Shown: positions 3,160 through 12,879 of the stretch, piece by piece | Position numbering within the stretch: position 1 is the first letter of the stretch | How the letters are laid out: every line of letters begins with the position of its first letter | Virus record (IMG/VR): IMGVR_UViG_2974564184_000001 | Span: 977-64,976 of that record | Length of the DNA stretch: 64,000 bases | Strand: one strand, 5' to 3' | From: a virus | Taxonomy: Duplodnaviria; Heunggongvirae; Uroviricota; Caudoviricetes | Position numbers and translations under genes: made by a program | Notes under the pieces: model-generated | Told to the model about the DNA's origin: nothing | Seen by the model: only the letters and a program-made list of their open reading frames with translations | The model's database searches: none

Positions 3160-3428
3160 GCGATCACGTCCAGTTTAGATGTTGAACCTATCAGTTCGAC
3201 GTGCCAGCGCTCTACGTCCTTGCCGTATTGCTTCTTGACTAAGGCTCCAACACGTTCGCAGCCATGCTTGTACACATACTGAGATTTCAGGAAGCCCTTA
3301 GTCTTCAACAAACTGCACCAAGTATCCTGATAGCAGGCTTTTACGCTATCAACCTTGCAGAGCAGTTGGTAGATGCGTTTTTCAATGCCCTCTGAGCCTG
3401 GGCCAAGCACGTAGTGTTCAGTTTTCAT
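3117..3428 (-). CDS. hypothetical protein
   Basis: 103-aa ORF. Confidence 0.4.
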   Translation of the reverse strand: MKTEHYVLGPGSEGIEKRIYQLLCKVDSVKACYQDTWCSLLKTKGFLKSQYVYKHGCERVGALVKKQYGKDVERWHVELIGSTSKLDVIACRKQRFLLEVKYK

Positions 3429-3976: not shown

Positions 3977-4263
3977 TAGTTAATTTTCCCCTTTCCAGTT
4001 TTAGTTGCGCCAAGAGGCCAGTCGCCACCTTGACTCCATGCGAGGACATCACCGTAGCCGGGATGCTCTTTCTTTCCGGTCATTGTGGCCTTGTTAGAGA
4101 TATCAAATGACCGTTTCCCGCTTTCTGTTTCGTACAGAAGCCAGACCCCACGATCATCACATCCCATATCTGTCCAGTGGATCGTCCACTTTAAGGTTCC
4201 AACAAGAACGTTTCTGTCTTCTTTGAACAAACCCTTCAACCAGTCGATCATTTGTTCGCCCAC
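3976..4263 (-). CDS. hypothetical protein
   Basis: 95-aa ORF. Confidence 0.4.
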   Translation of the reverse strand: MGEQMIDWLKGLFKEDRNVLVGTLKWTIHWTDMGCDDRGVWLLYETESGKRSFDISNKATMTGKKEHPGYGDVLAWSQGGDWPLGATKTGKGKIN

Positions 4264-4505
4264 TCAGCCAGCGCTTTTACCACGCGGGTTTCATCAAACA
4301 TAGAACAGATGATAAAGCCTACAAAGACTGTAGCAAAGCCAATTATCAGAGTGCCCACCATCACCTTGACTGCTTGGTCTCCGAAAGCAGCTTCAAAGCC
4401 TGCACAAATCCCGAAGATTGAACCAAGAAACAGAACTCCCACCAAGAAACATACCAATATACCTTTCATTTGATTTTCTCCTCTCTCATCTCGACGTAAC
4501 GCCAC
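4248..4505 (-). CDS. small membrane protein
   Basis: hydrophobic segments GILVCFLVGVLFLGSIFGI / LIIGFATVFVGFIIC. Confidence 0.45.
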   Translation of the reverse strand: MALRRDERGENQMKGILVCFLVGVLFLGSIFGICAGFEAAFGDQAVKVMVGTLIIGFATVFVGFIICSMFDETRVVKALAEWANK

Positions 4506-4626
4506 GTCTTCTTGTAGTGTGCCACTTTATCAGCGACTTCTGAGGTTGTCAAGCCCCCTTTGAGAAAATACCACTCCCCTTGCAGGGAGCAGGAGTCCAA
4601 AGACATTCTTCCGTAGATAGAGTACG

Positions 4627-5778
4627 TCAACCTTTGATCGCTTTCAGGTTGGCAATAGTATTCTCAAGCTCACGGATGGCTTTTGAGTACATTTTGCGGC
4701 GATGTTTTTCGAGGAACTTCTCCAGGAACTCCAGCGGCTTGAAGTCGAGGAAATATTCCAGGTTTTCTTCGATGCGGTACTCATCTTCAAGCATTGAAAA
4801 CAATGCGTTGTTAACTTCAACAGGGATAAACCCTGCCTTCACCACTTGGTGAGTGACCAGACGCTTTTTGTCCACGTCCCATGTGTTGTTGATCGGGAAG
4901 GCGTCCTGACCGTGCTTGTCTTGGAACAATTCCGACGCTTTCTCCGCCATCTCGTTTCTCGACTCCCGGTCTTCGTCATAAGAGTCTGATGAACTACGGC
5001 GGCGGCGCTCGTTAAAACGTCCACGGAACTCGCTCAGGTCATCAAAGTTTTCCATTGCCAAGTCGGTAAGCAATAAGATGTCATCCGATTGACTGATCAG
5101 GTTCGCGGCTTCGTATTTTACCTCGAAGGTGCTTGCAGAGTCGCGATCACGGTCGAGTACGAATGCCCGAGGCATGAAGTCGTAGTCGAATTTGAACTTA
5201 CCCGGCACTTCGGTAACAAAGATGCCCTTCACGAACAGGCGGCAGTTCTTGTGGTTGCCTTGTTTGGAGTAAGCCTTCCCGCGAGAGTTCTCGATCACCA
5301 CGGTTCTGTTCTGGGTCGGTGCGAAATTGGACTTAATCTCTTCAATCGCTTCCGCAGGTAGGTTGTTGATTCCAATCTCAACCGTATCCTTTGTTGCAAT
5401 GAGGCAACCCTCTTCGATGTTGACTGCCAGAACGTTCTCTTGGAACAATTCATCGTACACCATCTCAGGAGACCAGAGGTCACCCTCGTTATTCACAACA
5501 ATGCCAGCGCCCAGGCGCTTGAGAACAAGAAAGCCCAGCTTCATACCTTCACCGAACTTACCGATGGAGTCCACATCGCCCGTCTTGGAGGTTTTACCCA
5601 ACAGCAGGGCGGAAATTGGGATTTTCCCGCCACGGGAAATAACTTTGATGTTATTCTCGCCGAATTCGATGTTGTAGTCCTTGGTGTCCACAGCATTTTG
5701 CAGGATCTCACGAACGCCCTGCCACCATGACCAGTGGGCAACATAAGTTTCAGTGATTGAGAGCTTAATCTGTTTCAT
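4627..5778 (-). CDS. GHKL-family (histidine-kinase/Hsp90/MORC-like) ATPase
   Basis: Bergerat-fold motifs REILQNAVD (N box) and GKFGEGMKLGFLV (G1/G2 box); 383 aa. Confidence 0.6.
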   Translation of the reverse strand: MKQIKLSITETYVAHWSWWQGVREILQNAVDTKDYNIEFGENNIKVISRGGKIPISALLLGKTSKTGDVDSIGKFGEGMKLGFLVLKRLGAGIVVNNEGDLWSPEMVYDELFQENVLAVNIEEGCLIATKDTVEIGINNLPAEAIEEIKSNFAPTQNRTVVIENSRGKAYSKQGNHKNCRLFVKGIFVTEVPGKFKFDYDFMPRAFVLDRDRDSASTFEVKYEAANLISQSDDILLLTDLAMENFDDLSEFRGRFNERRRRSSSDSYDEDRESRNEMAEKASELFQDKHGQDAFPINNTWDVDKKRLVTHQVVKAGFIPVEVNNALFSMLEDEYRIEENLEYFLDFKPLEFLEKFLEKHRRKMYSKAIRELENTIANLKAIKG

Positions 5779-6098
5779 TATTCCTCCCCTGCGTTATAGA
5801 CCATGCAATCTGAGATGAAATCCTTACGAACACCCTCATGAATGTCATAGCTGTGTGTTTTCCCGAAGCTCATGGTGTCACATGCGACGGCATAATGTAT
5901 CTGACAACCTGCGATCAGCAAATTCCCCAGCAAGACAAACCAATTGGACGCCCCACGGTTGGATTTCAGACCTAATGTGGAGTCAGCATCTTGGACACCA
6001 TGACAAACACCCCACGCGGCTCGGTATTGCTTGCCGTCTGGCGCAAAGAAGTAGTTATCGGTAGTGATGAGCATCTTTTGGCCCGGTACGAATTTCAT
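5778..6098 (-). CDS. hypothetical protein
   Basis: 106-aa ORF, start codon overlaps GHKL gene stop. Confidence 0.4.
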   Translation of the reverse strand: MKFVPGQKMLITTDNYFFAPDGKQYRAAWGVCHGVQDADSTLGLKSNRGASNWFVLLGNLLIAGCQIHYAVACDTMSFGKTHSYDIHEGVRKDFISDCMVYNAGEE

Positions 6099-6220
6099 AG
6101 TTTCTCCTTGTAAACGTTTTGTGTCCGAGAATCATACATAGCGTGGAACATCGTGTCAACCACTTGCTTTCTTTTTTCTTTCCTGTATACTGGCTGCACA
6201 TTCACTTAAAGGAGAGCACA

Positions 6221-6793
6221 ATGTCCCTCACACAATTAACTCAACCAACACTATACTCGTGCGTAACCACTTGCATCGCCATGTTGCTGGGAGAGAAATC
6301 CCCAGACAACATCGTTGCGACGTACCACCCGCTGTTCTGGTCTGGGAAGATGAGTACACACCAGATTCTGGACGATTTGCACATCAAATATCGCAAACCG
6401 CGTAACCGTCACTGCCTGAAACGCAACAAGACCTATCTGATCGGAATTCCATCTCTGAATATCACAGGTGGTATGCACCAAGTCATCTTCCAGGTGGACA
6501 ATAACTGGACGATCACCGTGTTTGACCCGGCACAGGGTCGTAAAGGTCGTCGTTTCTACCAGTCAACGTGGAAACCCCTGACTGAAAACAGTGCCTACCC
6601 GATTACTTGGGAGATTGATGCTGAGATTGTGGGTGTTAAGCGTGTCAAGGTGTCAAGATCTGATACTATTTATCATGCTGACGCATATCAGGAACGTCAA
6701 CGTGCGGCTTCGCGCTCTCACGACTACGACTTCCATGAGTTCTTGGCTAAACGTGTAGTAGATCAGGGAGAAACCTATGACCTCGCGCCGTAA
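6221..6793 (+). CDS. papain-like cysteine peptidase, C39-like
   Basis: AGGAG RBS before ATG 6221; motif TLYSCVTTCIAMLLG (Cys) and GGMHQVIF (His) resembling peptidase C39 catalytic dyad; opposite strand to neighbours. Confidence 0.45.
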   Translation: MSLTQLTQPTLYSCVTTCIAMLLGEKSPDNIVATYHPLFWSGKMSTHQILDDLHIKYRKPRNRHCLKRNKTYLIGIPSLNITGGMHQVIFQVDNNWTITVFDPAQGRKGRRFYQSTWKPLTENSAYPITWEIDAEIVGVKRVKVSRSDTIYHADAYQERQRAASRSHDYDFHEFLAKRVVDQGETYDLAP

Positions 6794-7067
6794 GGATTAT
6801 GGAATACCGGATCGCAACCAGATTGACCCCCGCCTGGCGGTGGATGACCTTGCAATTGTGTATGGATTCCCTGAGGGGAGTCCTTCATCAATCATCAACG
6901 GGAAAGAGGTTATGATTACCGGGCCTCTTAACAAGGGAAAGTACACCTGTGACGTTGACGGCTATCCTCAGTCGTTCCACATCGCACCGGAGAACTTGAT
7001 GTACTTGGATACCGAAGACATCATCATAATTTCTGTCTACGATGAATTCCTTCCCCGGAACCAATAA
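6777..7067 (+). CDS. hypothetical protein
   Basis: 96-aa ORF overlapping previous stop; followed by strong terminator. Confidence 0.4.
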   Translation: MTSRRKDYGIPDRNQIDPRLAVDDLAIVYGFPEGSPSSIINGKEVMITGPLNKGKYTCDVDGYPQSFHIAPENLMYLDTEDIIIISVYDEFLPRNQ

Positions 7068-7070
7068 CAA

Positions 7071-7099
7071 AAAACCCGCCAAAAGGCGGGTTTCTTTTT
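7071..7099. terminator. bidirectional rho-independent terminator
   Basis: AAAAACCCGCC-AAAA-GGCGGGTTTCTTTTT; convergent genes on both sides. Confidence 0.75.
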
Positions 7100-7361
7100 A
7101 CATCACCGTTACTCTCAACCACTCATTTCTTTGCGTCAAGATCATCCGGTTCTTCTTGCTTCGATTCATCACTGCCGGGATTACCTGGATGTTGTCCCCG
7201 CAGTTCAGACCTGAGCAGCTTCTTGCTCTGAGAGGGATCATGTGATCCGGTTCCCACTTCAAGCTGGTTTGTTCATTACGTACTTTGCAAAGCGCATCCG
7301 CCTCATCGCGGACGAACTCATCCCATTCGGTGTGGGTGGTTGCTCGTTCAATTGCCTCCAT
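7098..7361 (-). CDS. HNH endonuclease (small)
   Basis: DHMIPLRARSCSGLNCGDNIQVIPAVMNRSK = DH..P...G...N.Q......N HNH motif. Confidence 0.65.
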   Translation of the reverse strand: MEAIERATTHTEWDEFVRDEADALCKVRNEQTSLKWEPDHMIPLRARSCSGLNCGDNIQVIPAVMNRSKKNRMILTQRNEWLRVTVM

Positions 7362-7485
7362 CCGTGCATAGCGGATGCGGAGTTGTTCAGCCTTCCCCTC
7401 TGGGGTTGCTCGACGAGCTTTGTCAAGTTCGCGACGACGTGCAGCGTATGCCTTATAGTAGGCTTGTCTGTTTATGTGCTTCTCC

Positions 7486-8010
7486 TTATCGAATGAACAG
7501 AGCAGTAAGCGTCAGGATCGCATACGCTGTCGCCCCAATCAAGAAGAGGCGGTTACCAGACGAGCGCAACCAACGCTCCACACGTTGCTCTGGTGGACTT
7601 TCCTTCACATGCTCTTCGATGATTGTATCCACAGCACGATACAGGTCGCGGAGCGCTGTCTCAAACCCTTCATACTTGTCGAATGCCGGGTCGAGGTCAT
7701 CAGGATCAAGGTCGCCCATCTTTCTGACCCTGAAACTGTACTTATTTGGAACGGTTGAGGCTGCACGGGTGACATCAAGTCGTCCTGTGATACTGTGGAA
7801 CAGAATATCGTTCTCGAAGTCACGAACAATGAGGGTTCTATCCCCGCAAGGTCGTCTCAAAAGTTCGATATTGCCCTTTGCCGTTCCGATGGCCCCTTTC
7901 TCCAAGAGTTCTTTCCAGTATTCTTGGAGGGCAGGACGTTCTCTTACCAGTTTCTGAAACATGACTACCTCCTTAGTGTAAGATACCATTTTATCACGGA
8001 ATCTCAACAA
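7486..8010 (-). CDS. hypothetical protein with C-terminal transmembrane helix
   Basis: 174-aa ORF; C-terminus LFLIGATAYAILTLTALFI. Confidence 0.45.
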   Translation of the reverse strand: MLRFRDKMVSYTKEVVMFQKLVRERPALQEYWKELLEKGAIGTAKGNIELLRRPCGDRTLIVRDFENDILFHSITGRLDVTRAASTVPNKYSFRVRKMGDLDPDDLDPAFDKYEGFETALRDLYRAVDTIIEEHVKESPPEQRVERWLRSSGNRLFLIGATAYAILTLTALFIR

Positions 8011-8413: not shown

Positions 8414-8619
8414 TTTTTTCTCCTAATGATGTAATTCACTATCGGTGCGACAGGCCACATGAACCCAAAGGTGAAACACCTTTCCGACCAATCATGGTCG
8501 GATCGGATTTTGTGCATCAATCGCAGTTCTTTGTTGTTCTCCATACGGATGCAGTAGATCAGCCCGATCACCGCATACGCAAGGAACATTGCTCCGTAAA
8601 TCAATTCCACCCAACTCAC
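8371..8619 (-). CDS. small membrane protein
   Basis: 82 aa, hydrophobic N-terminus. Confidence 0.4.
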   Translation of the reverse strand: MSWVELIYGAMFLAYAVIGLIYCIRMENNKELRLMHKIRSDHDWSERCFTFGFMWPVAPIVNYIIRRKNDPERIRKHLQTFG

Positions 8620-9674
8620 CGATTATGCCAAACCAAGTCCTGGATTTCCATAAGCACCTGAGCGCCGTAGTCGCGATCAAAGCTGTGTGGCAATTTACTC
8701 TTCTGGTAAAGTTCGCCACGGATGAATTCATCCTTTTCCTCTGCCCATTTTAACAGGTCTTCGAGGGGCCACGCACCACCACGGATATCTAAAAGCTCTT
8801 TAGCATCCGGGCGCTTCACCTTGACCTCACCAGTCGTCAAGATCTCTTCTGCCATTCGCATCAGGCGCACTAAGTGCATCGCGTGTTTGGTGTCATAACC
8901 GTAGTTGACTTCCAACTCGTGACGAACCTCATTACGGTTCTCCTTCCACGTCCAGTAGTTCCGGTGCTTCTCTTTGGCCTGCTTGTGCTCATCAGCCAGG
9001 TATTTAACGATCAGTGTTGGCTGGCGCTTCTTGTCCTCATCAGAAAGAGCGCTGTACTCCACGCGACGGATAGAACCATCTGTATTGAACAATCCAGGGC
9101 TGTCCCATGAGCCGATCACACCGAAGATGTTGTCACCCATTGGCAAGAAGATGCTCATCTTATCCAGGCGGTCAAGAACGTACTGGAAGTCCTGATGTTT
9201 CAGCAGCTTCTCGTCCATCCAAGAGTGTGTCAGCCTCAGATAATCACGCTGCGTTGGCTGTGCCTCCGGCTGCGGGTTGTTTATCCACTTGTCATGCCCT
9301 TTGATACGCTTCAACTGGGCCATTGCATAGCCCGAAAAAGAGAAGGCGACCTTTTTCGACAACAAATTGTAACCCACATCCCGGATCATCTGGTACGCCT
9401 CGGATGTCTGAATGATATCAGATTCGTCAACGAAAGCCAGCTCGATTATGTTCGGGTTCATCTCTGAGAACAACTTGAAGAAGTTGGTCAGTTCATAGAT
9501 CTTGCCGTCCTCCTCATCAGCCAATGTCAGCTCCTTGATCGGGAAGAATGGCGTCCTGATAGAGCGCATGGGGGCACAGAACAGTCCACGGATATCCACA
9601 TCAGAGGTTGGGAGGTTAGTCCCGTAGGCGAGGCTACCGGAGTAGCAACGCATTATATCTTTGTTCTCAAACAT
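8616..9674 (-). CDS. pol-beta superfamily nucleotidyltransferase
   Basis: N-terminal GSLAYGTNLPTSDVDIRG (GS-x9-DxD) minimal NTase motif; 352 aa with helical C-terminal domain. Confidence 0.55.
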   Translation of the reverse strand: MFENKDIMRCYSGSLAYGTNLPTSDVDIRGLFCAPMRSIRTPFFPIKELTLADEEDGKIYELTNFFKLFSEMNPNIIELAFVDESDIIQTSEAYQMIRDVGYNLLSKKVAFSFSGYAMAQLKRIKGHDKWINNPQPEAQPTQRDYLRLTHSWMDEKLLKHQDFQYVLDRLDKMSIFLPMGDNIFGVIGSWDSPGLFNTDGSIRRVEYSALSDEDKKRQPTLIVKYLADEHKQAKEKHRNYWTWKENRNEVRHELEVNYGYDTKHAMHLVRLMRMAEEILTTGEVKVKRPDAKELLDIRGGAWPLEDLLKWAEEKDEFIRGELYQKSKLPHSFDRDYGAQVLMEIQDLVWHNR

Positions 9675-10056
9675 ATTCTCTCCCTTGCGAGGTGACCAAG
9701 CTCATTGGTCGTTTCATTTCCCAGAAATTGATGATCCGCTGACAAGTCCGCTTCACAGGCATCCCGTCTGCATTGATGCACTCTTCATCACGAATGCGGC
9801 GCACTTCATCCAACAACCCATAGACCTCTGGAGGATATGGTCGGGCCGGGTCAGGAACCTTAATCATGCAGCTCCCGTATTTCCAGATCGAAAGCGTTGG
9901 CTCCCGACCAGGGTTTGTTGTCACCATGACCTTGGCCTTCAAGTTACGGACTTGATCAATGACACCAGGCTTGAGTTCGTTATACCCGAAGTACAGCATC
10001 ACATGGTCACCGACATTCAACAGATTCCCCGCTGAATCAACAAAGTTTTTAACCAT
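9667..10056 (-). CDS. hypothetical protein
   Basis: 129-aa ORF. Confidence 0.4.
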   Translation of the reverse strand: MVKNFVDSAGNLLNVGDHVMLYFGYNELKPGVIDQVRNLKAKVMVTTNPGREPTLSIWKYGSCMIKVPDPARPYPPEVYGLLDEVRRIRDEECINADGMPVKRTCQRIINFWEMKRPMSLVTSQGREYV

Positions 10057-10384
10057 TAAATTGCTCCTCTGTGAATTTGTTCTCTTCTTGCATGGAACGG
10101 GCCATCATCATGAGTTCTTCCGCCTGGCGGCGATAGCTCTGCATTGTTTTCAGCTCACGTTTCTGGATTGCTTTAATCCATTTCTGAAAGTCGCCGTTGT
10201 ACTGTTTCTCGAATCCTTTCTTTCCTCCGAGAATTGTCCCGCATCGGACTCCTTGCCCGTTTGGGCCAAGAGTCCTTGTCCAGTACATGAACATGCCATA
10301 GCCCAGTTCCTCCGTTGCCGTAAACATCGCGTCCGAGTAGACGATTTCACCGTGAGCCATCCTCATGCGCCTTTCAGCCTGCAA
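10049..10384 (-). CDS. hypothetical protein
   Basis: 111-aa ORF. Confidence 0.4.
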   Translation of the reverse strand: MQAERRMRMAHGEIVYSDAMFTATEELGYGMFMYWTRTLGPNGQGVRCGTILGGKKGFEKQYNGDFQKWIKAIQKRELKTMQSYRRQAEELMMMARSMQEENKFTEEQFNG

Positions 10385-10863
10385 CCTTTGATTGCCTCAA
10401 TGAGATCCTTCTCCGGTTGGGAGTAGTTGTGCAGCACGTTTCCCGTCTCCAGGTCTTTGTACTGGTTGGCGATCCTCAAACCACCCAGTTCCCCGTTGTA
10501 AGACTCAATATCCACGTCCATCGCATACTGCGGGGCATACATGTACTCAGGAAGTACGATGCAGATCGCAGTCAATGCCCCATTCAAAGCCGCCTCCTCC
10601 TCGTGGAACTTGGCAGAAGGAAGTGAACGGCAACACTGCATCAGATCGAAGATACGTTCCAGGTTCGACTGATACCCTCCCTCAAGAACGATGATCGTCT
10701 TATCGCGCCGCGCCCAGTTGTCACACAACTGCACTGCCCTTGATTGTGGGCGGTGATTCACCCCGTAATCGTACATCATATCGGCTACCGCATGTGCAGT
10801 TTGAATCCCGGCATGTATGCCGGATATGTACTGGTTTACGACGGAGTAAAGACGGGTCTGCAT
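10363..10863 (-). CDS. hypothetical protein
   Basis: ORF trimmed to internal Met (MQTRLYSV) so that it abuts upstream stop. Confidence 0.4.
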   Translation of the reverse strand: MQTRLYSVVNQYISGIHAGIQTAHAVADMMYDYGVNHRPQSRAVQLCDNWARRDKTIIVLEGGYQSNLERIFDLMQCCRSLPSAKFHEEEAALNGALTAICIVLPEYMYAPQYAMDVDIESYNGELGGLRIANQYKDLETGNVLHNYSQPEKDLIEAIKGCRLKGA

Positions 10864-11111
10864 CACGATCTTCCTCCTGGGATTTTGAACACAACCTTTT
10901 TTTCCAGGAACTTTGTCAGCTTGGAAGACACATTGAGACCTTCCCAGATCATCATCCAAAGAACCAGCGGCAAGCCAAAGATCCAAAGCGCACAAAGGGT
11001 TATAAGGATAAGTGCTTCTCGCCCATCAACCTCTTCGCCACGACAGTGGATGCCGATCAGAAGCGCGGTCAGCAACGCGCCCAGCAGCCAGATAGTTAGT
11101 AATGTCATCAT
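10863..11111 (-). CDS. small membrane protein
   Basis: three hydrophobic helices. Confidence 0.45.
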   Translation of the reverse strand: MMTLLTIWLLGALLTALLIGIHCRGEEVDGREALILITLCALWIFGLPLVLWMMIWEGLNVSSKLTKFLEKKVVFKIPGGRS

Positions 11112-11407
11112 TTTTCTCCTACAGTTTTATTTTTGGCTACTTTCACCAAGTAGATTAACAGTGTAACGGCAGCAATGAAAATCATCACTGTCAGAAGTAC
11201 AGGAAGAAGCACAATCGCCAGCGTCAGCACGATAGGTGTAAACAGACCGAACATGAAGACCGCCAAACCCGTAGGTAGCAGGTCTTCATCTGGAGCTGTC
11301 AGTCCAGCGATCACCGCCCATAACAGCATACTGATACCCGCCGCCCACGGATAGTGCAGAATGAAGATATTCAGTGTCGGCTGCAAAACCCAATTAATCC
11401 ATTCCAT
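11108..11407 (-). CDS. small membrane protein
   Basis: 99 aa, multi-pass hydrophobic. Confidence 0.45.
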   Translation of the reverse strand: MEWINWVLQPTLNIFILHYPWAAGISMLLWAVIAGLTAPDEDLLPTGLAVFMFGLFTPIVLTLAIVLLPVLLTVMIFIAAVTLLIYLVKVAKNKTVGEK

Positions 11408-11417
11408 TTCTCTCTCC

Positions 11418-11627
11418 TCAAAAGTCGAACATTTTAGTTAGTCGGTGCATTGCACCTTCATAAGACGCATGGTCTTTGTAATTGCAACCTTTTTCAACAC
11501 ACCAGTCGGTGGCCTTGTTGCGAAGGCCGACCAAACCGCATTGCTCGCAGACCTGCTTTCCACAGGTCTTGCTTTGATAGAAGTGGTGACGCTCGTACTT
11601 GTACGGGTCTTTGTCAGCTTTCTTCAT
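11418..11627 (-). CDS. small Cys-containing protein
   Basis: CGKQVCEQCG...C..GC pattern. Confidence 0.4.
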   Translation of the reverse strand: MKKADKDPYKYERHHFYQSKTCGKQVCEQCGLVGLRNKATDWCVEKGCNYKDHASYEGAMHRLTKMFDF

Positions 11628-12879
11628 CTTTACGCATCTCCTTCATTTCGCGAAGGACTTTACGGATAGCGTCGATCCGCTCAACACGGATTGCCTCACC
11701 AATCTGGATGCCCGGGACATCTCGTTCCAGCAGACGAGCGCTGATGGGCTTCACGTCCAAAGTCATAACCGCCGCTTGGCAACTGAGAAGCATATCCGCT
11801 TGTGGGTAAGGCTTCAACCAACTTTTCGGCAAACCACGACCCGCTTGATCCATAGAGCAGGCGTTAGCCAAGTCCACGCAACGGCGGCGGTTCTTCAAAC
11901 TGCCCGTGCGCTCCAGAAGTTTCATTACAGATGCAGGCTTCATGTCGTTCTGACCTTTTCGACCGATCATCGTGTGTACGTGAGTATGGAACTCCGTTAC
12001 AACACAGGCCAGCTCTTCAAAGGACTTAGGCACACGCAACCGCTCACAGAAAGCCTTCACCAGAGGAACGCCAGCAGCCTCATGTCCGAACAGGTTCTTG
12101 TGCTCTTCCCATGTAGGGTGCTTGCCGAAGTCATGACACAACACAGCAAACTTCACCTCTGGAGACATACTGTAGCGGTCGCACTCCTCAATACAACGCA
12201 GTGTATGGGCAAAGGCATCGCCTTCCGGGTGGTGCTCTTTCGGCTGCTCAACACCAATCAGATTGTACAGCTCCGGCAGTTCACCGAAGGTGGACATGCT
12301 CTCTGCGTACTGCATGAAGTTTCGGCTGTTTAGAGCCTTCTCCATTTCCTTCCACTTGCGCTCTGCACTGATTTCTACCAAGCGATGACGGTTCATGAAT
12401 GCCATGTGCCAAGTAACACCCGCGATCCTCCATGTGTCTCCCAATTGAGAGGCGAAGCGGAACATGCGGAGGATACGCAAAGGGTCATCCATGAAAGCAT
12501 CAGTTGTGTGACGAAGGATCTTGCGGCGAAGGTCTGCCTGACCGTTGAACGGGTCGATAATCTCTCCCGTATTCAGGTTTTTTGCCATCGCATTGATCGT
12601 CAGGTCACGGCGTCCCAGGTCTTCTTCCAGAGTCACATCTGGAGAGAAGAAGGTCTCGAAGCCTTTGTGACCATCACCCACTTTCCGCTCTGTTCGAGCA
12701 AGGGCATACTCTTCACCTGATACGGGGTGCAGGTAAACAGGGAAGGCCGCGCCCACTTGCTTGAATCCATGTGCGATCATTTGATCGTGGGTCGCACCAA
12801 CCACTACGTAATCACGGTCATGCACTGGACGACATAAAAGCTCATCACGTACTGCACCACCAACCAGGTAAATTTGCAT
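11614..12879 (-). CDS. cca: CCA-adding tRNA nucleotidyltransferase with HD domain
   Basis: MQIYLVGGAVRDELL (GGxVRD), RRDLTINAMA, HD-domain HPEGDAFAHT; 421 aa like bacterial class II Cca. Confidence 0.85.
   Translation of the reverse strand: MQIYLVGGAVRDELLCRPVHDRDYVVVGATHDQMIAHGFKQVGAAFPVYLHPVSGEEYALARTERKVGDGHKGFETFFSPDVTLEEDLGRRDLTINAMAKNLNTGEIIDPFNGQADLRRKILRHTTDAFMDDPLRILRMFRFASQLGDTWRIAGVTWHMAFMNRHRLVEISAERKWKEMEKALNSRNFMQYAESMSTFGELPELYNLIGVEQPKEHHPEGDAFAHTLRCIEECDRYSMSPEVKFAVLCHDFGKHPTWEEHKNLFGHEAAGVPLVKAFCERLRVPKSFEELACVVTEFHTHVHTMIGRKGQNDMKPASVMKLLERTGSLKNRRRCVDLANACSMDQAGRGLPKSWLKPYPQADMLLSCQAAVMTLDVKPISARLLERDVPGIQIGEAIRVERIDAIRKVLREMKEMRKDEES

What the first reader, a model, noticed from the sequence alone, without database searches (positions are those of the whole stretch)
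4627..7099. Orphan GHKL ATPase followed by an opposite-strand C39-like peptidase islet bounded by a bidirectional terminator
4627..5778 has the Bergerat ATP-binding fold (N-box REILQNAVD, G-boxes GKFGEGMKLG). GHKL/MORC-type ATPases are typical of defence and anti-defence and of DNA-topology systems, not of core phage replication. Immediately downstream, two genes on the opposite strand (6221..7067) encode a papain-like peptidase with a C39-type Cys/His arrangement and a 96-aa partner. This two-gene unit ends in a strong convergent terminator, a layout suggesting a horizontally acquired cassette.
Basis: partly seen in the sequence, partly recalled or inferred. Interest (0 to 1): 0.55.

Follow-up and report, generated by a model that had tools for sequence, protein, structure and literature searches.

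The report
Two uncharacterised accessory phage enzymes
This stretch of Erwinia phage Hena1 encodes a GHKL-type ATPase and, beside it on the other strand, a small C39-like cysteine peptidase; both belong to widespread, uncharacterised phage protein families, and nothing shows that they work together.

Summary
The window is Erwinia phage Hena1 (Vequintavirinae).

- **Terminator.** A bidirectional terminator lies at 7069-7096.

- gp016 is not a topoisomerase subunit. It belongs to a phage family (phrog_6077, more than 235 members). Among viral models it is structurally nearest to rIIA, and it usually sits in replication or recombination modules.
- The canonical adenine-binding Asp is replaced by Ser, Asn or Thr in 131 of 140 members. 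48 of 141 relatives carry a C-terminal HExxH motif.
- The opposite-strand islet, its gp019-family gene and the terminator are ancestral to this locus in Henunavirus and Mydovirus. Only the gene in front of gp019 varies: a peptidase, an HNH endonuclease or a small ORF.
- The ATPase and peptidase are next to each other only in Henunavirus-like phages. I found no sign of co-distribution elsewhere.

Neither protein has a tested function. This is an ordinary accessory-gene patch of modest interest.

The parts
4627..5778 (-). gp016: 383-aa GHKL (Bergerat-fold) ATPase with a transducer domain (aa 1 to about 212) and a helical C-terminal domain without detectable relatives (aa about 213-383). Member of phrog_6077.
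5778..6098 (-). gp017: 106-aa protein of unknown function (phrog_22562). First gene of the leftward operon. Its stop overlaps the GHKL start (TAATG).
   Evidence: Outside Henunavirus its homologues are in Flavobacterium, Cellulophaga, Aeromonas and Pseudomonas phages, so it is not a general partner of the GHKL gene.
4466..4630 (-). Unannotated 54-aa ORF (phrog_2381) with a TTG start overlapping the GHKL stop (TTGA). Syntenic small gene downstream of the GHKL gene.
   Evidence: The same family follows the GHKL gene in pEp_SNUABM_01, L010 and Ro1.
6131..6159 (-). Sigma-70-like promoter TTGACA-17-TATGAT (11 of 12 matches) facing gp017 and gp016.
   Evidence: Consensus match only; not tested.
6164..6191 (+). 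Candidate weak promoter TTGCTT-16-TATACT facing gp018 and gp019.
   Evidence: Read from the sequence. It did not pass the scanner's threshold. Inference only.
6221..6793 (+). gp018: 190-aa papain-fold, C39-like cysteine peptidase domain (aa 1 to about 140, phrog_4049) plus a lineage-specific helical C-terminal extension (aa about 141-190).
6777..7067 (+). gp019: 96-aa protein of unknown function (phrog_13562). It is the conserved anchor gene of the opposite-strand islet.
7069..7096 (.). Bidirectional intrinsic terminator between the convergent genes gp019 (plus strand) and the EndoVII/HNH-like gene (minus strand).
   Evidence: It is conserved in five phages with compensatory stem changes.
7098..7478 (-). 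EndoVII/HNH-like gene (phrog_1035), not annotated in RefSeq. It forms the convergent flank of the terminator.

Best explanation
This is an accessory-gene patch in the early region of Erwinia phage Hena1. It holds independent units rather than one system.

(1) A leftward operon, probably driven by a sigma-70-type promoter, encodes gp017, gp016 and a 54-aa ORF.
- gp016 is a GHL-type ATPase (Bergerat fold plus transducer domain) of a phage-specific family.
- I infer that it binds and hydrolyses a nucleotide triphosphate. The catalytic Glu24, the Mg-binding Asn28, the GxxGEG lid, Lys65 and Arg210 are all invariant or nearly so.
- I infer that it works as a nucleotide-driven dimerising clamp, like MutL, MORC, Hsp90, topoisomerase II ATPase domains and rIIA. 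Its variable C-terminal domain would then engage a client.
- From the genomic context of homologues, the client is most likely phage DNA or the replication/recombination machinery. A less likely alternative is an rIIA-like role in countering host abortive-infection defences.
- The family's replacement of the adenine-contacting G1 Asp by Ser, Asn or Thr suggests altered nucleotide recognition.

(2) A rightward two-gene islet encodes gp018 and gp019 and ends at a conserved bidirectional terminator.
- gp018 is a cytoplasmic papain-fold cysteine peptidase with a C39-like Gln/Cys/His/Asp active site.
- I infer that it is an active endopeptidase cleaving a host or phage protein during infection. The substrate is unknown.
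- gp019 and the terminator are ancestral to the locus. The peptidase is exchangeable cargo.

Shown: the folds, the conserved residues, the gene order and its conservation, and the distribution. Inferred: catalytic activity, clamp mechanism, substrates, and timing of expression.
For: GHKL fold:
- Family profile against PDB: Topo VI-B E 1.3e-4, HtpG E 2e-3.
- AF2 model pLDDT 84.
- BFVD: own family first, then rIIA proteins at E 1e-8 to 1e-5, then topoisomerases at about 3e-4.

GHKL active-site conservation: R23, E24, N28, D31, G61, K65, G73, G76, E77, G78 and R210 are invariant or nearly so in 140 sequences.

GHKL context of homologues:
- Cronobacter phage CR9: between the primase/helicase and DNA polymerase genes.
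- Vibrio phage 1.175.O: near a COG1061-class protein and dUTPase.
- Pseudomonas phage PaMx11: next to DNA ligase and near an exonuclease.
- Metagenomic contig L013: flanked by DnaB, PolA, a Metallophos protein plus an SMC_N/AAA_23 ATPase (an Mre11/Rad50-like pair, my reading) and a DEAD helicase.

Peptidase:
- Q8, C14, H86 and D102 invariant in 53 sequences.
- AF2 model pLDDT 90.
- 9 of 53 members give weak Pfam Peptidase_C39 hits.
- ComA's catalytic residues are Cys17 and His96 (PMC10630487), a similar spacing.

Independence of the units:
- Ro1 keeps the GHKL gene and the islet but has an HNH endonuclease in place of the peptidase.
- KpS8 keeps the islet but has neither the GHKL gene nor the peptidase there.
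- DU_PP_I and FENT2 carry both genes, about 40 kb and 5 kb apart.
- The terminator is conserved in five phages.
Against: - No experiment exists for either family.
- The G1 Asp is missing (Ser48), so ATP binding is not assured.
- The C-terminal domain of gp016 has no detectable relatives, so the client is a guess from context.
- In Hena1 itself, gp016 lies among small early genes and is not inside the polymerase/helicase cluster, which is at record 105-117 kb.
- GHKL-peptidase adjacency is retained in relatives down to about 55% amino-acid identity.
- 48 of 141 GHKL relatives are fused to an HExxH motif. Some link between this ATPase family and proteolysis therefore cannot be excluded.
Confidence: 0.6

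Rival explanations
1. One reading: the GHKL ATPase and the C39-like peptidase form one horizontally acquired defence or anti-defence cassette and act together, for example as an ATP-driven clamp that recruits or regulates a protease.
For: - Adjacency is conserved in pEp_SNUABM_01 and in a metagenomic relative at 54-58% identity.
- 48 of 141 relatives of the ATPase carry a C-terminal HExxH metallopeptidase-like motif, so this ATPase family is physically coupled to a putative peptidase domain elsewhere.
- The fold is nearest to rIIA among viral proteins. PMC7824862 describes rIIA as the centre of a poorly understood counter-defence system with a GHKL N-terminus and a variable C-terminus.
- There is a weak PADLOC hit to TmtA at E 5e-5.
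Against: - The two genes are divergently transcribed from separate promoters, and gp017 lies between them.
- Ro1 has the ATPase with an HNH gene in the peptidase slot. KpS8 has the islet with neither gene.
- Genomes carrying both genes place them 5-40 kb apart.
- The two families show different host and taxon profiles. The peptidase is found in 46 Escherichia and 34 Salmonella phage records. The ATPase is found in 9 Escherichia records, and Salmonella is not among its listed host genera.
- The TmtA match covers only the generic N-box to G2 region.
Confidence: 0.12
2. gp016 is a degenerate pseudo-ATPase: a structural or scaffold protein that keeps the fold but no longer binds ATP.
For: The G1-box Asp that contacts adenine N6 in canonical GHKL enzymes is Ser48 here. 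The G1 motif reads SRGGK instead of DxGxG. Family-wide, only 9 of 140 sequences keep Asp.
Against: The catalytic Glu, the Mg-binding Asn, the whole G2 lid motif, Lys65 and the transducer-domain Arg210 are invariant or nearly so across 140 sequences that are only 25-30% identical overall. That pattern indicates selection on a working nucleotide site. Ser, Asn and Thr can still form hydrogen bonds to a base.
Confidence: 0.15
3. gp018 is a cell-wall or lysis-associated amidase or endoisopeptidase rather than a cytoplasmic protein-processing peptidase.
Against: - By inspection of the sequence there is no signal peptide, transmembrane segment or wall-binding domain.
- Hena1 has two annotated endolysins elsewhere.
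- In most phages the gene sits among small early genes.
- The sequence-level affinity is to C39.
Confidence: 0.1
4. gp016 is the ATPase subunit of a phage topoisomerase or a MutL-type repair factor.
Against: - gp016 has no TOPRIM domain and no MutL C-terminal endonuclease or dimerisation domain.
- Its C-terminal 170 aa have no relatives.
- No topoisomerase A-type subunit is annotated in the 148.8-kb genome.
- Viral topoisomerases match less well than rIIA in BFVD.
Confidence: 0.03

Closest known systems
Phage rIIA proteins (T4 rIIA and orthologues), N-terminal GHKL module
   Same: - Both are phage-encoded GHKL ATPases of the HATPase_c_3 type followed by a variable C-terminal region.
- rIIA proteins are the best non-family structural matches in BFVD, at E 1e-8 to 1e-5.
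- The motifs align between the two: vRE..N..D, and LG.s.K...G..G.G.K.
   Different: - gp016 is half the size: 383 aa against 660 aa for Hena1's own rIIA, gp156.
- There is no adjacent rIIB gene.
- It gives no rIIA PHROG or Pfam hit.
- rIIA keeps the G1 Asp (vrDfGlG). gp016 has Ser.
- The function of rIIA is itself poorly understood.
GHL/MORC clamp ATPases (GyrB/ParE/topoisomerase II ATPase domain, MutL, Hsp90, MORC, SMCHD1)
   Different: No TOPRIM, CW, S5-linked coiled-coil, MutL C-terminal or Hsp90 middle/C-terminal domains. The G1 motif is non-canonical. The C-terminal domain is unrelated.
Sacsin-type GHKL repeat, NCBIfam NF047352 (P_loop_sacsin), and PADLOC TmtA
   Same: These are the closest curated sequence models for the region from the N-box to the G2-box (E 6e-4 and 5e-5). 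One GenBank homologue is labelled 'sacsin-beta sandwich'.
   Different: Scores are far below the curated cut-off (20 bits against 50). Only about 60 residues match. The size and domain architecture are completely different.
Peptidase family C39: bacteriocin-processing double-glycine peptidase domains of PCAT/ComA transporters and the 6mpz double-glycine-motif protease domain
   Same: - Gln-x5-Cys ... His-x15-Asp catalytic arrangement, invariant in the family.
- Weak Pfam C39 hits for 9 of 53 members.
   Different: - It is a stand-alone, phage-encoded cytoplasmic protein. It is not fused to or adjacent to an ABC transporter.
- No double-glycine leader substrate was identified.
- It has extra invariant residues (S78, N80 and P103; P77 in at least 90%, forming a PSLN motif).
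- gp018 itself gives no Pfam hit at E <= 1.

Membership tests
GHKL (Bergerat-fold) ATPase superfamily | Motif I (N-box) ExxxNxxD, with the catalytic Glu and the Mg-binding Asn | tested here: met
   R23-E24-x3-N28-x2-D31. R23, N28 and D31 are invariant in 140 family sequences; E24 is Glu in 139 (one Asp). The motif aligns to the N-box of Topo VI-B and HtpG.
GHKL (Bergerat-fold) ATPase superfamily | Motif II (G1-box) DxGxG, with the Asp contacting the adenine | tested here: not met
   The aligned segment is S48-R-G50-G-K52. Family-wide this position is Ser 86, Asn 35, Thr 10 and Asp 9. Only the first Gly is largely conserved (125 of 140).
GHKL (Bergerat-fold) ATPase superfamily | Motif III (G2-box) GxxGxG ATP lid | tested here: met
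   G73-K-F-G76-E77-G78. G73 and G78 are invariant in 140 sequences; G76 and E77 are each replaced in two.
GHKL (Bergerat-fold) ATPase superfamily | Alpha/beta sandwich Bergerat fold | tested here: met
   [not shown]
GHKL (Bergerat-fold) ATPase superfamily | Mg-dependent ATP binding and hydrolysis | not testable with these tools
   Needs biochemistry.
GHL/MORC subclass (GHKL plus transducer domain) | A second domain that follows the ATPase and supplies a basic residue to the gamma-phosphate | tested here: inconclusive
   [not shown]
Type II topoisomerase B subunit | TOPRIM domain, or a Topo VI-A/GyrA-type partner encoded in the genome | tested here: not met
   The C-terminal 170 aa have no Pfam or PDB relatives. 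No topoisomerase is annotated in the Hena1 genome.
rIIA family | Sequence membership (rIIA PHROG or Pfam HATPase_c_3 hit), length of about 650-900 aa, and an adjacent rIIB gene | tested here: not met
   gp016 hits only phrog_6077 and phrog_8203 and gives no Pfam hit. It is 383 aa. The genuine rIIA and rIIB genes are gp156 and gp157, elsewhere in the genome. Fold similarity alone is present.
Peptidase family C39 (clan CA) | Catalytic Cys on the N-terminal helix, preceded by an oxyanion-hole Gln, followed by a His and Asp/Asn on beta-strands | tested here: met
   Q8, C14, H86 and D102 are invariant in 53 sequences. C14 starts helix 14-22 and H86 lies in strand 85-92 of the model. Compare ComA Cys17 and His96 (PMC10630487).
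Peptidase family C39 (clan CA) | Significant match to the Pfam Peptidase_C39 model | tested here: not met
   gp018 gives no hit at E <= 1. 9 of 53 relatives give weak hits, the best at E 3.7e-4.
Peptidase family C39 (clan CA) | Papain-like fold closest to C39 structures | tested here: met
   [not shown]
Peptidase family C39 (clan CA) | Association with an ABC exporter and cleavage after a double-glycine leader | tested here: not met
   It is a stand-alone protein with no transporter gene nearby. gp019 has a conserved YGF motif, not a GG/GA/GS leader motif. Cleavage specificity cannot be tested here.

The most novel reading that the evidence does not exclude
The phrog_6077 ATPases could be a compact, rIIA-like counter-defence family whose nucleotide-driven clamp controls a protease. 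In this reading the protease is fused as an HExxH domain in about a third of members and, in Henunavirus, supplied in trans by the neighbouring C39-like cysteine peptidase. The Ser/Asn/Thr substitution in the G1-box would reflect a nucleotide or signal other than ATP. If true, this would be a new kind of ATPase-gated phage protease system aimed at host immunity proteins.
Probability: 0.07. Interest if true: 0.75.

Novelty: new member of a known kind. Interest (0 to 1): 0.3.

Why it matters
Both proteins belong to large phage families that have never been characterised.
- The ATPase family has more than 235 members in the metagenome search.
- The peptidase family has 359 clusters at 50% identity and occurs in 170 sequenced phages.

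Knowing the folds, the conserved catalytic residues and which neighbours are constant or exchangeable gives clean targets for mutagenesis: E24, N28, S48 and R210 in gp016, and C14 and H86 in gp018.

The ATPase family's systematic loss of the adenine-binding Asp, together with the HExxH fusions in relatives, is the one feature a specialist might want to follow up. Otherwise the locus is a typical accessory early-gene patch, and it does not open a long-standing question.

Tried and rejected
- **Direct family scans.** Pfam gave nothing for gp016, gp017, gp018 or gp019 at E <= 1. Single-sequence PDB searches gave only noise.
- **Defence and NCBI models.** PADLOC and NCBIfam gave only sub-threshold matches to generic GHKL motifs: TmtA and P_loop_sacsin.
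- **gp016 C-terminal domain.** A profile of this domain found no relatives in PDB or Pfam.
- **Conserved partners.** I looked for a constant partner of the GHKL gene. phrog_2381 follows it only in syntenic Vequintavirinae, not in CR9 or the Vibrio phage. gp017 (phrog_22562) occurs mostly in unrelated phages that were not among the ATPase hits.
- **gp019 as a peptidase substrate.** I considered gp019 as a double-glycine-leader substrate, because 'DLAIVYGF' resembles ELxxIxGG. I rejected this because position -1 is an invariant Phe, and because gp019 homologues exist without an adjacent peptidase.
- **Ro1 gp071 and KpS8 gp158.** Neither is a peptidase homologue. Ro1 gp071 is an HNH endonuclease, and KpS8 gp158 is unrelated.
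- **Literature.** Searches found no study of either family.
Full report
**Identity and layout.** The window is 100% identical to Erwinia phage Hena1 (NC_048828; Vequintavirinae, Henunavirus). Window position equals record position minus 975. The region lies in a roughly 40-kb block of early and middle genes that are all on the minus strand. In that block the plus-strand annotations are gp018, gp019 and gp020, and gp020 is probably spurious (see the locus-conservation section).
- gp016, 4627-5778, minus strand, 383 aa.
- gp018, 6221-6793, plus strand, 190 aa.
- gp019, 6777-7067, plus strand, 96 aa.

gp017 (5778-6098, minus strand, 106 aa) has a stop that overlaps the gp016 start (TAATG). An unannotated 54-aa ORF (4466-4630, minus strand, phrog_2381) has a TTG start that overlaps the gp016 stop.

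The two gene sets are divergent, not tandem.
- A near-consensus sigma-70 promoter, TTGACA-17-TATGAT at 6159-6131, faces gp017 and gp016.
- A weaker TTGCTT-16-TATACT faces gp018. I read this from the sequence; it fell below the scanner's threshold.
- The hairpin AAAAAACCCGCC-AAAA-GGCGGGTTTCTTTTT at 7069-7096 scores as a terminator on both strands.

**The ATPase (gp016).** Pfam gives nothing for gp016 itself. It belongs to phrog_6077 (E 3e-114).

*Distribution.* tblastn finds it in 114 phage records, 54 of them full length.
- Present in: Henunavirus, Certrevirus (CR9, phiTE, PcCB7V), 4MG/GAP31-like phages, some Klebsiella phages and Ro1.
- Also present in unrelated phages: Vibrio phages, Pseudomonas Abidjanvirus siphoviruses, and Edwardsiella, Pseudoalteromonas and Shewanella phages.
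- Some depositors already call homologues 'histidine kinase-like ATPase', 'HATPase', 'chaperon protein', 'sacsin-beta sandwich' or (wrongly) 'RIIA lysis inhibitor'.
- The neighbouring nucleotidyltransferase gene has 180 full-length records, so the ATPase is patchy among relatives. KpS8 (Mydovirus) lacks it at the syntenic site.

*Fold.*
- A 28-sequence alignment used as a profile hits only GHKL structures in the PDB: Topo VI-B at E 1.3e-4, then HtpG/Hsp90/TRAP1.
- The AF2 model has pLDDT 84 and pTM 0.75.
- In the viral model library, the next-best matches after the family's own members are rIIA proteins (E 1e-8 to 1e-5). They score ahead of phage topoisomerases (about 3e-4).
- Hena1 has its own rIIA and rIIB (gp156 and gp157) elsewhere in the genome. 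That rIIA carries HATPase_c_3 and aligns to gp016 only over the N-box to G2 motifs.
- No topoisomerase is annotated in the genome. The C-terminal 170 residues of gp016 have no relatives in PDB or Pfam.
- gp016 is therefore neither a topoisomerase subunit, nor MutL, nor an rIIA orthologue.

*Family-wide features (140 sequences).*
- Invariant or nearly so (at most two substitutions among 140): R23, E24 (catalytic Glu), N28 (Mg ligand), D31, G61, K65, G73, G76, E77, G78 and R210.
- The position that aligns with the adenine-contacting Asp of the DxGxG G1-box is Ser in 86, Asn in 35, Thr in 10 and Asp in only 9. Hena1 has SRGGK.
- This combination argues for a functional nucleotide site with non-canonical base recognition rather than a dead fold. 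This is an inference.
- 48 of 141 family members (median length 444 aa) carry an HExxH motif about 30 residues from the C-terminus. Pfam matches to SprT-like are weak. The Hena1 clade (median 387 aa) lacks this motif.

*Genomic context of homologues.* It is repeatedly the replication/recombination module.
- CR9: between the primase/helicase and DNA polymerase genes.
- Vibrio phage 1.175.O: near a COG1061-class protein and dUTPase.
- PaMx11: next to DNA ligase and near an exonuclease.
- Metagenomic contig L013: after DnaB, PolA and a Metallophos protein plus an SMC_N/AAA_23 ATPase (an Mre11/Rad50-like pair, my reading), and before a DEAD helicase.

This is the basis for my preferred guess of a DNA-associated, nucleotide-driven clamp. 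The rIIA-like counter-defence reading (PMC7824862) is the main alternative.

**The peptidase (gp018).** Pfam gives nothing for gp018 itself. Residues 2-138 match phrog_4049 (E 3e-32).

*Distribution.*
- An exhaustive HMMER search finds 359 representative clusters, mostly stand-alone proteins of about 140 aa.
- tblastn finds 170 phage records. They include Seuratvirus and Nonagvirus coliphages, Samunavirus, Vibrio siphoviruses and several Vequintavirinae. One is annotated 'papain-like cysteine protease'.

*Active site and fold.*
- In 53 aligned sequences, Q8, C14, S78, N80, H86, D102 and P103 are invariant.
- This is the Gln-x5-Cys ... His-x15-Asp pattern of clan CA. ComA uses Cys17 and His96 (PMC10630487).
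- The AF2 model has pLDDT 90.
- 9 of 53 members give weak Pfam Peptidase_C39 hits.
- The fold and catalytic arrangement are confirmed. Strict C39 membership and double-glycine specificity are not.

*Other points.*
- Residues about 141-190 form a helical extension found only in Henunavirus-like sequences.
- No transporter, leader-peptide substrate or constant neighbour was found in other phages.

**Is it a cassette?** Adjacency of the ATPase and the peptidase is conserved in pEp_SNUABM_01 and in a metagenomic relative at 54-58% identity. It is not conserved beyond that.
- Ro1 (Mydovirus) has the ATPase on the minus strand. Its plus-strand islet holds a 68-aa ORF, an HNH endonuclease and a gp019 homologue.
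- KpS8 has the islet (a 79-aa ORF plus a gp019 homologue) but no ATPase and no peptidase there.
- BIS47 has the peptidase about 5 kb from its gp019 homologue, on the other strand.
- DU_PP_I and FENT2 have both genes, about 40 kb and 5 kb apart.

The conserved features of the locus are these:
- The gp019-family gene (phrog_13562).
- Its opposite-strand orientation.
- The bidirectional terminator, present in all five phages examined with compensatory stem changes: CCCGCC/GGCGGG against CCCGGC/GCCGGG.
- The convergent EndoVII/HNH-like gene. In Hena1 this gene (7098 to about 7478, minus strand) is intact and 90% identical to pEp_SNUABM_01 gp159. It has ATA in place of the ATG start and is not annotated. 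RefSeq's plus-strand gp020 is probably spurious.

So the islet is ancestral, and only the gene upstream of gp019 is exchangeable cargo. The host and taxon profiles of the two enzyme families differ strongly. I therefore treat the ATPase and peptidase as independent accessory genes. About 0.1 probability remains for a functional link. That remainder comes mainly from the HExxH fusions in ATPase relatives and from the persistence of adjacency within the Henunavirus-like lineage.

**Verdict.** Both proteins are new, uncharacterised members of known enzyme superfamilies, sitting in an ordinary plasticity zone of a Vequintavirinae early region. The only unusual point is the ATPase family's non-canonical G1-box together with its variable, sometimes HExxH-bearing, C-terminus. 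Interest is low to moderate.

Noticed in passing
window 4466-4630 (-): An unannotated 54-aa ORF (phrog_2381, E 3e-18) has a TTG start overlapping the gp016 stop (TTGA). Homologues are annotated in pEp_SNUABM_01 and Ro1 but not in the Hena1 RefSeq record. A terminator-like hairpin (4592-4571) and a promoter-like site (4552-4524) lie inside it.
   Followed up: partly
window 7098-7478 (-), overlapping RefSeq gp020 at 7242-7496 (+): An EndoVII/HNH-like gene (phrog_1035) is intact in frame and 90% identical over 124 aa to pEp_SNUABM_01 gp159. Hena1 has ATA where the relative has the ATG start, so it may start at ATA or at the internal ATG at 7361. The RefSeq plus-strand gp020 call is probably spurious.
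   Followed up: yes
GHKL family, proteins P0001-P0085 and P0241-P0296; Hena1 residue S48 (window about 5635-5637, -): Across 140 family members, the position of the G1-box Asp that contacts adenine in canonical GHKL ATPases is Ser 86, Asn 35, Thr 10 and Asp 9. All other nucleotide-site residues are invariant or nearly so.
   Followed up: partly
Relatives of gp016, e.g. P0073 and P0082 (loci L012, L013): 48 of 141 family members (median 444 aa) carry a C-terminal HExxH motif with weak SprT-like Pfam matches. This is a GHKL-ATPase/putative zinc-peptidase fusion, found for example next to DnaB, PolA, a Metallophos/SMC_N-AAA_23 (Mre11/Rad50-like) pair and helicase genes.
   Followed up: partly
window 7069-7096; L002 about 6573-6599; L010 about 4176-4206; L008 about 6168-6197; L018 about 3189-3214: The bidirectional terminator between the gp019-family gene and the EndoVII-like gene is conserved in five phages. 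The stem shows compensatory changes: CCCGCC/GGCGGG against CCCGGC/GCCGGG.
   Followed up: yes
window 49363-49470 (+): RefSeq annotates a 108-nt 'tRNA-TERM / tRNA-sup(tca)' here. ARAGORN finds 25 tRNAs in the 46.3-56.8 kb cluster but does not call this one.
   Followed up: partly
window 8616-12879 (-); record 37.8-46 kb and 98-100 kb: Hena1 carries a rich RNA-repair and NAD-salvage gene set: an RlaP-type nucleotidyltransferase, a CCA-adding tRNA nucleotidyltransferase, RNA ligases, a polynucleotide-kinase-like ATPase, Sir2, NadV, PrsA, NMNAT and PnuC. This fits counter-measures against host tRNA-cleaving and NAD-depleting defences.
   Followed up: no
P0085 (Chrysochromulina tobinii protein, 614 aa): A eukaryotic (haptophyte) protein matches the phage ATPase family weakly (E 1.6e-5). 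By its source annotation and the Pfam scan it carries a SAP DNA-binding domain and a C-terminal RING finger.
   Followed up: no
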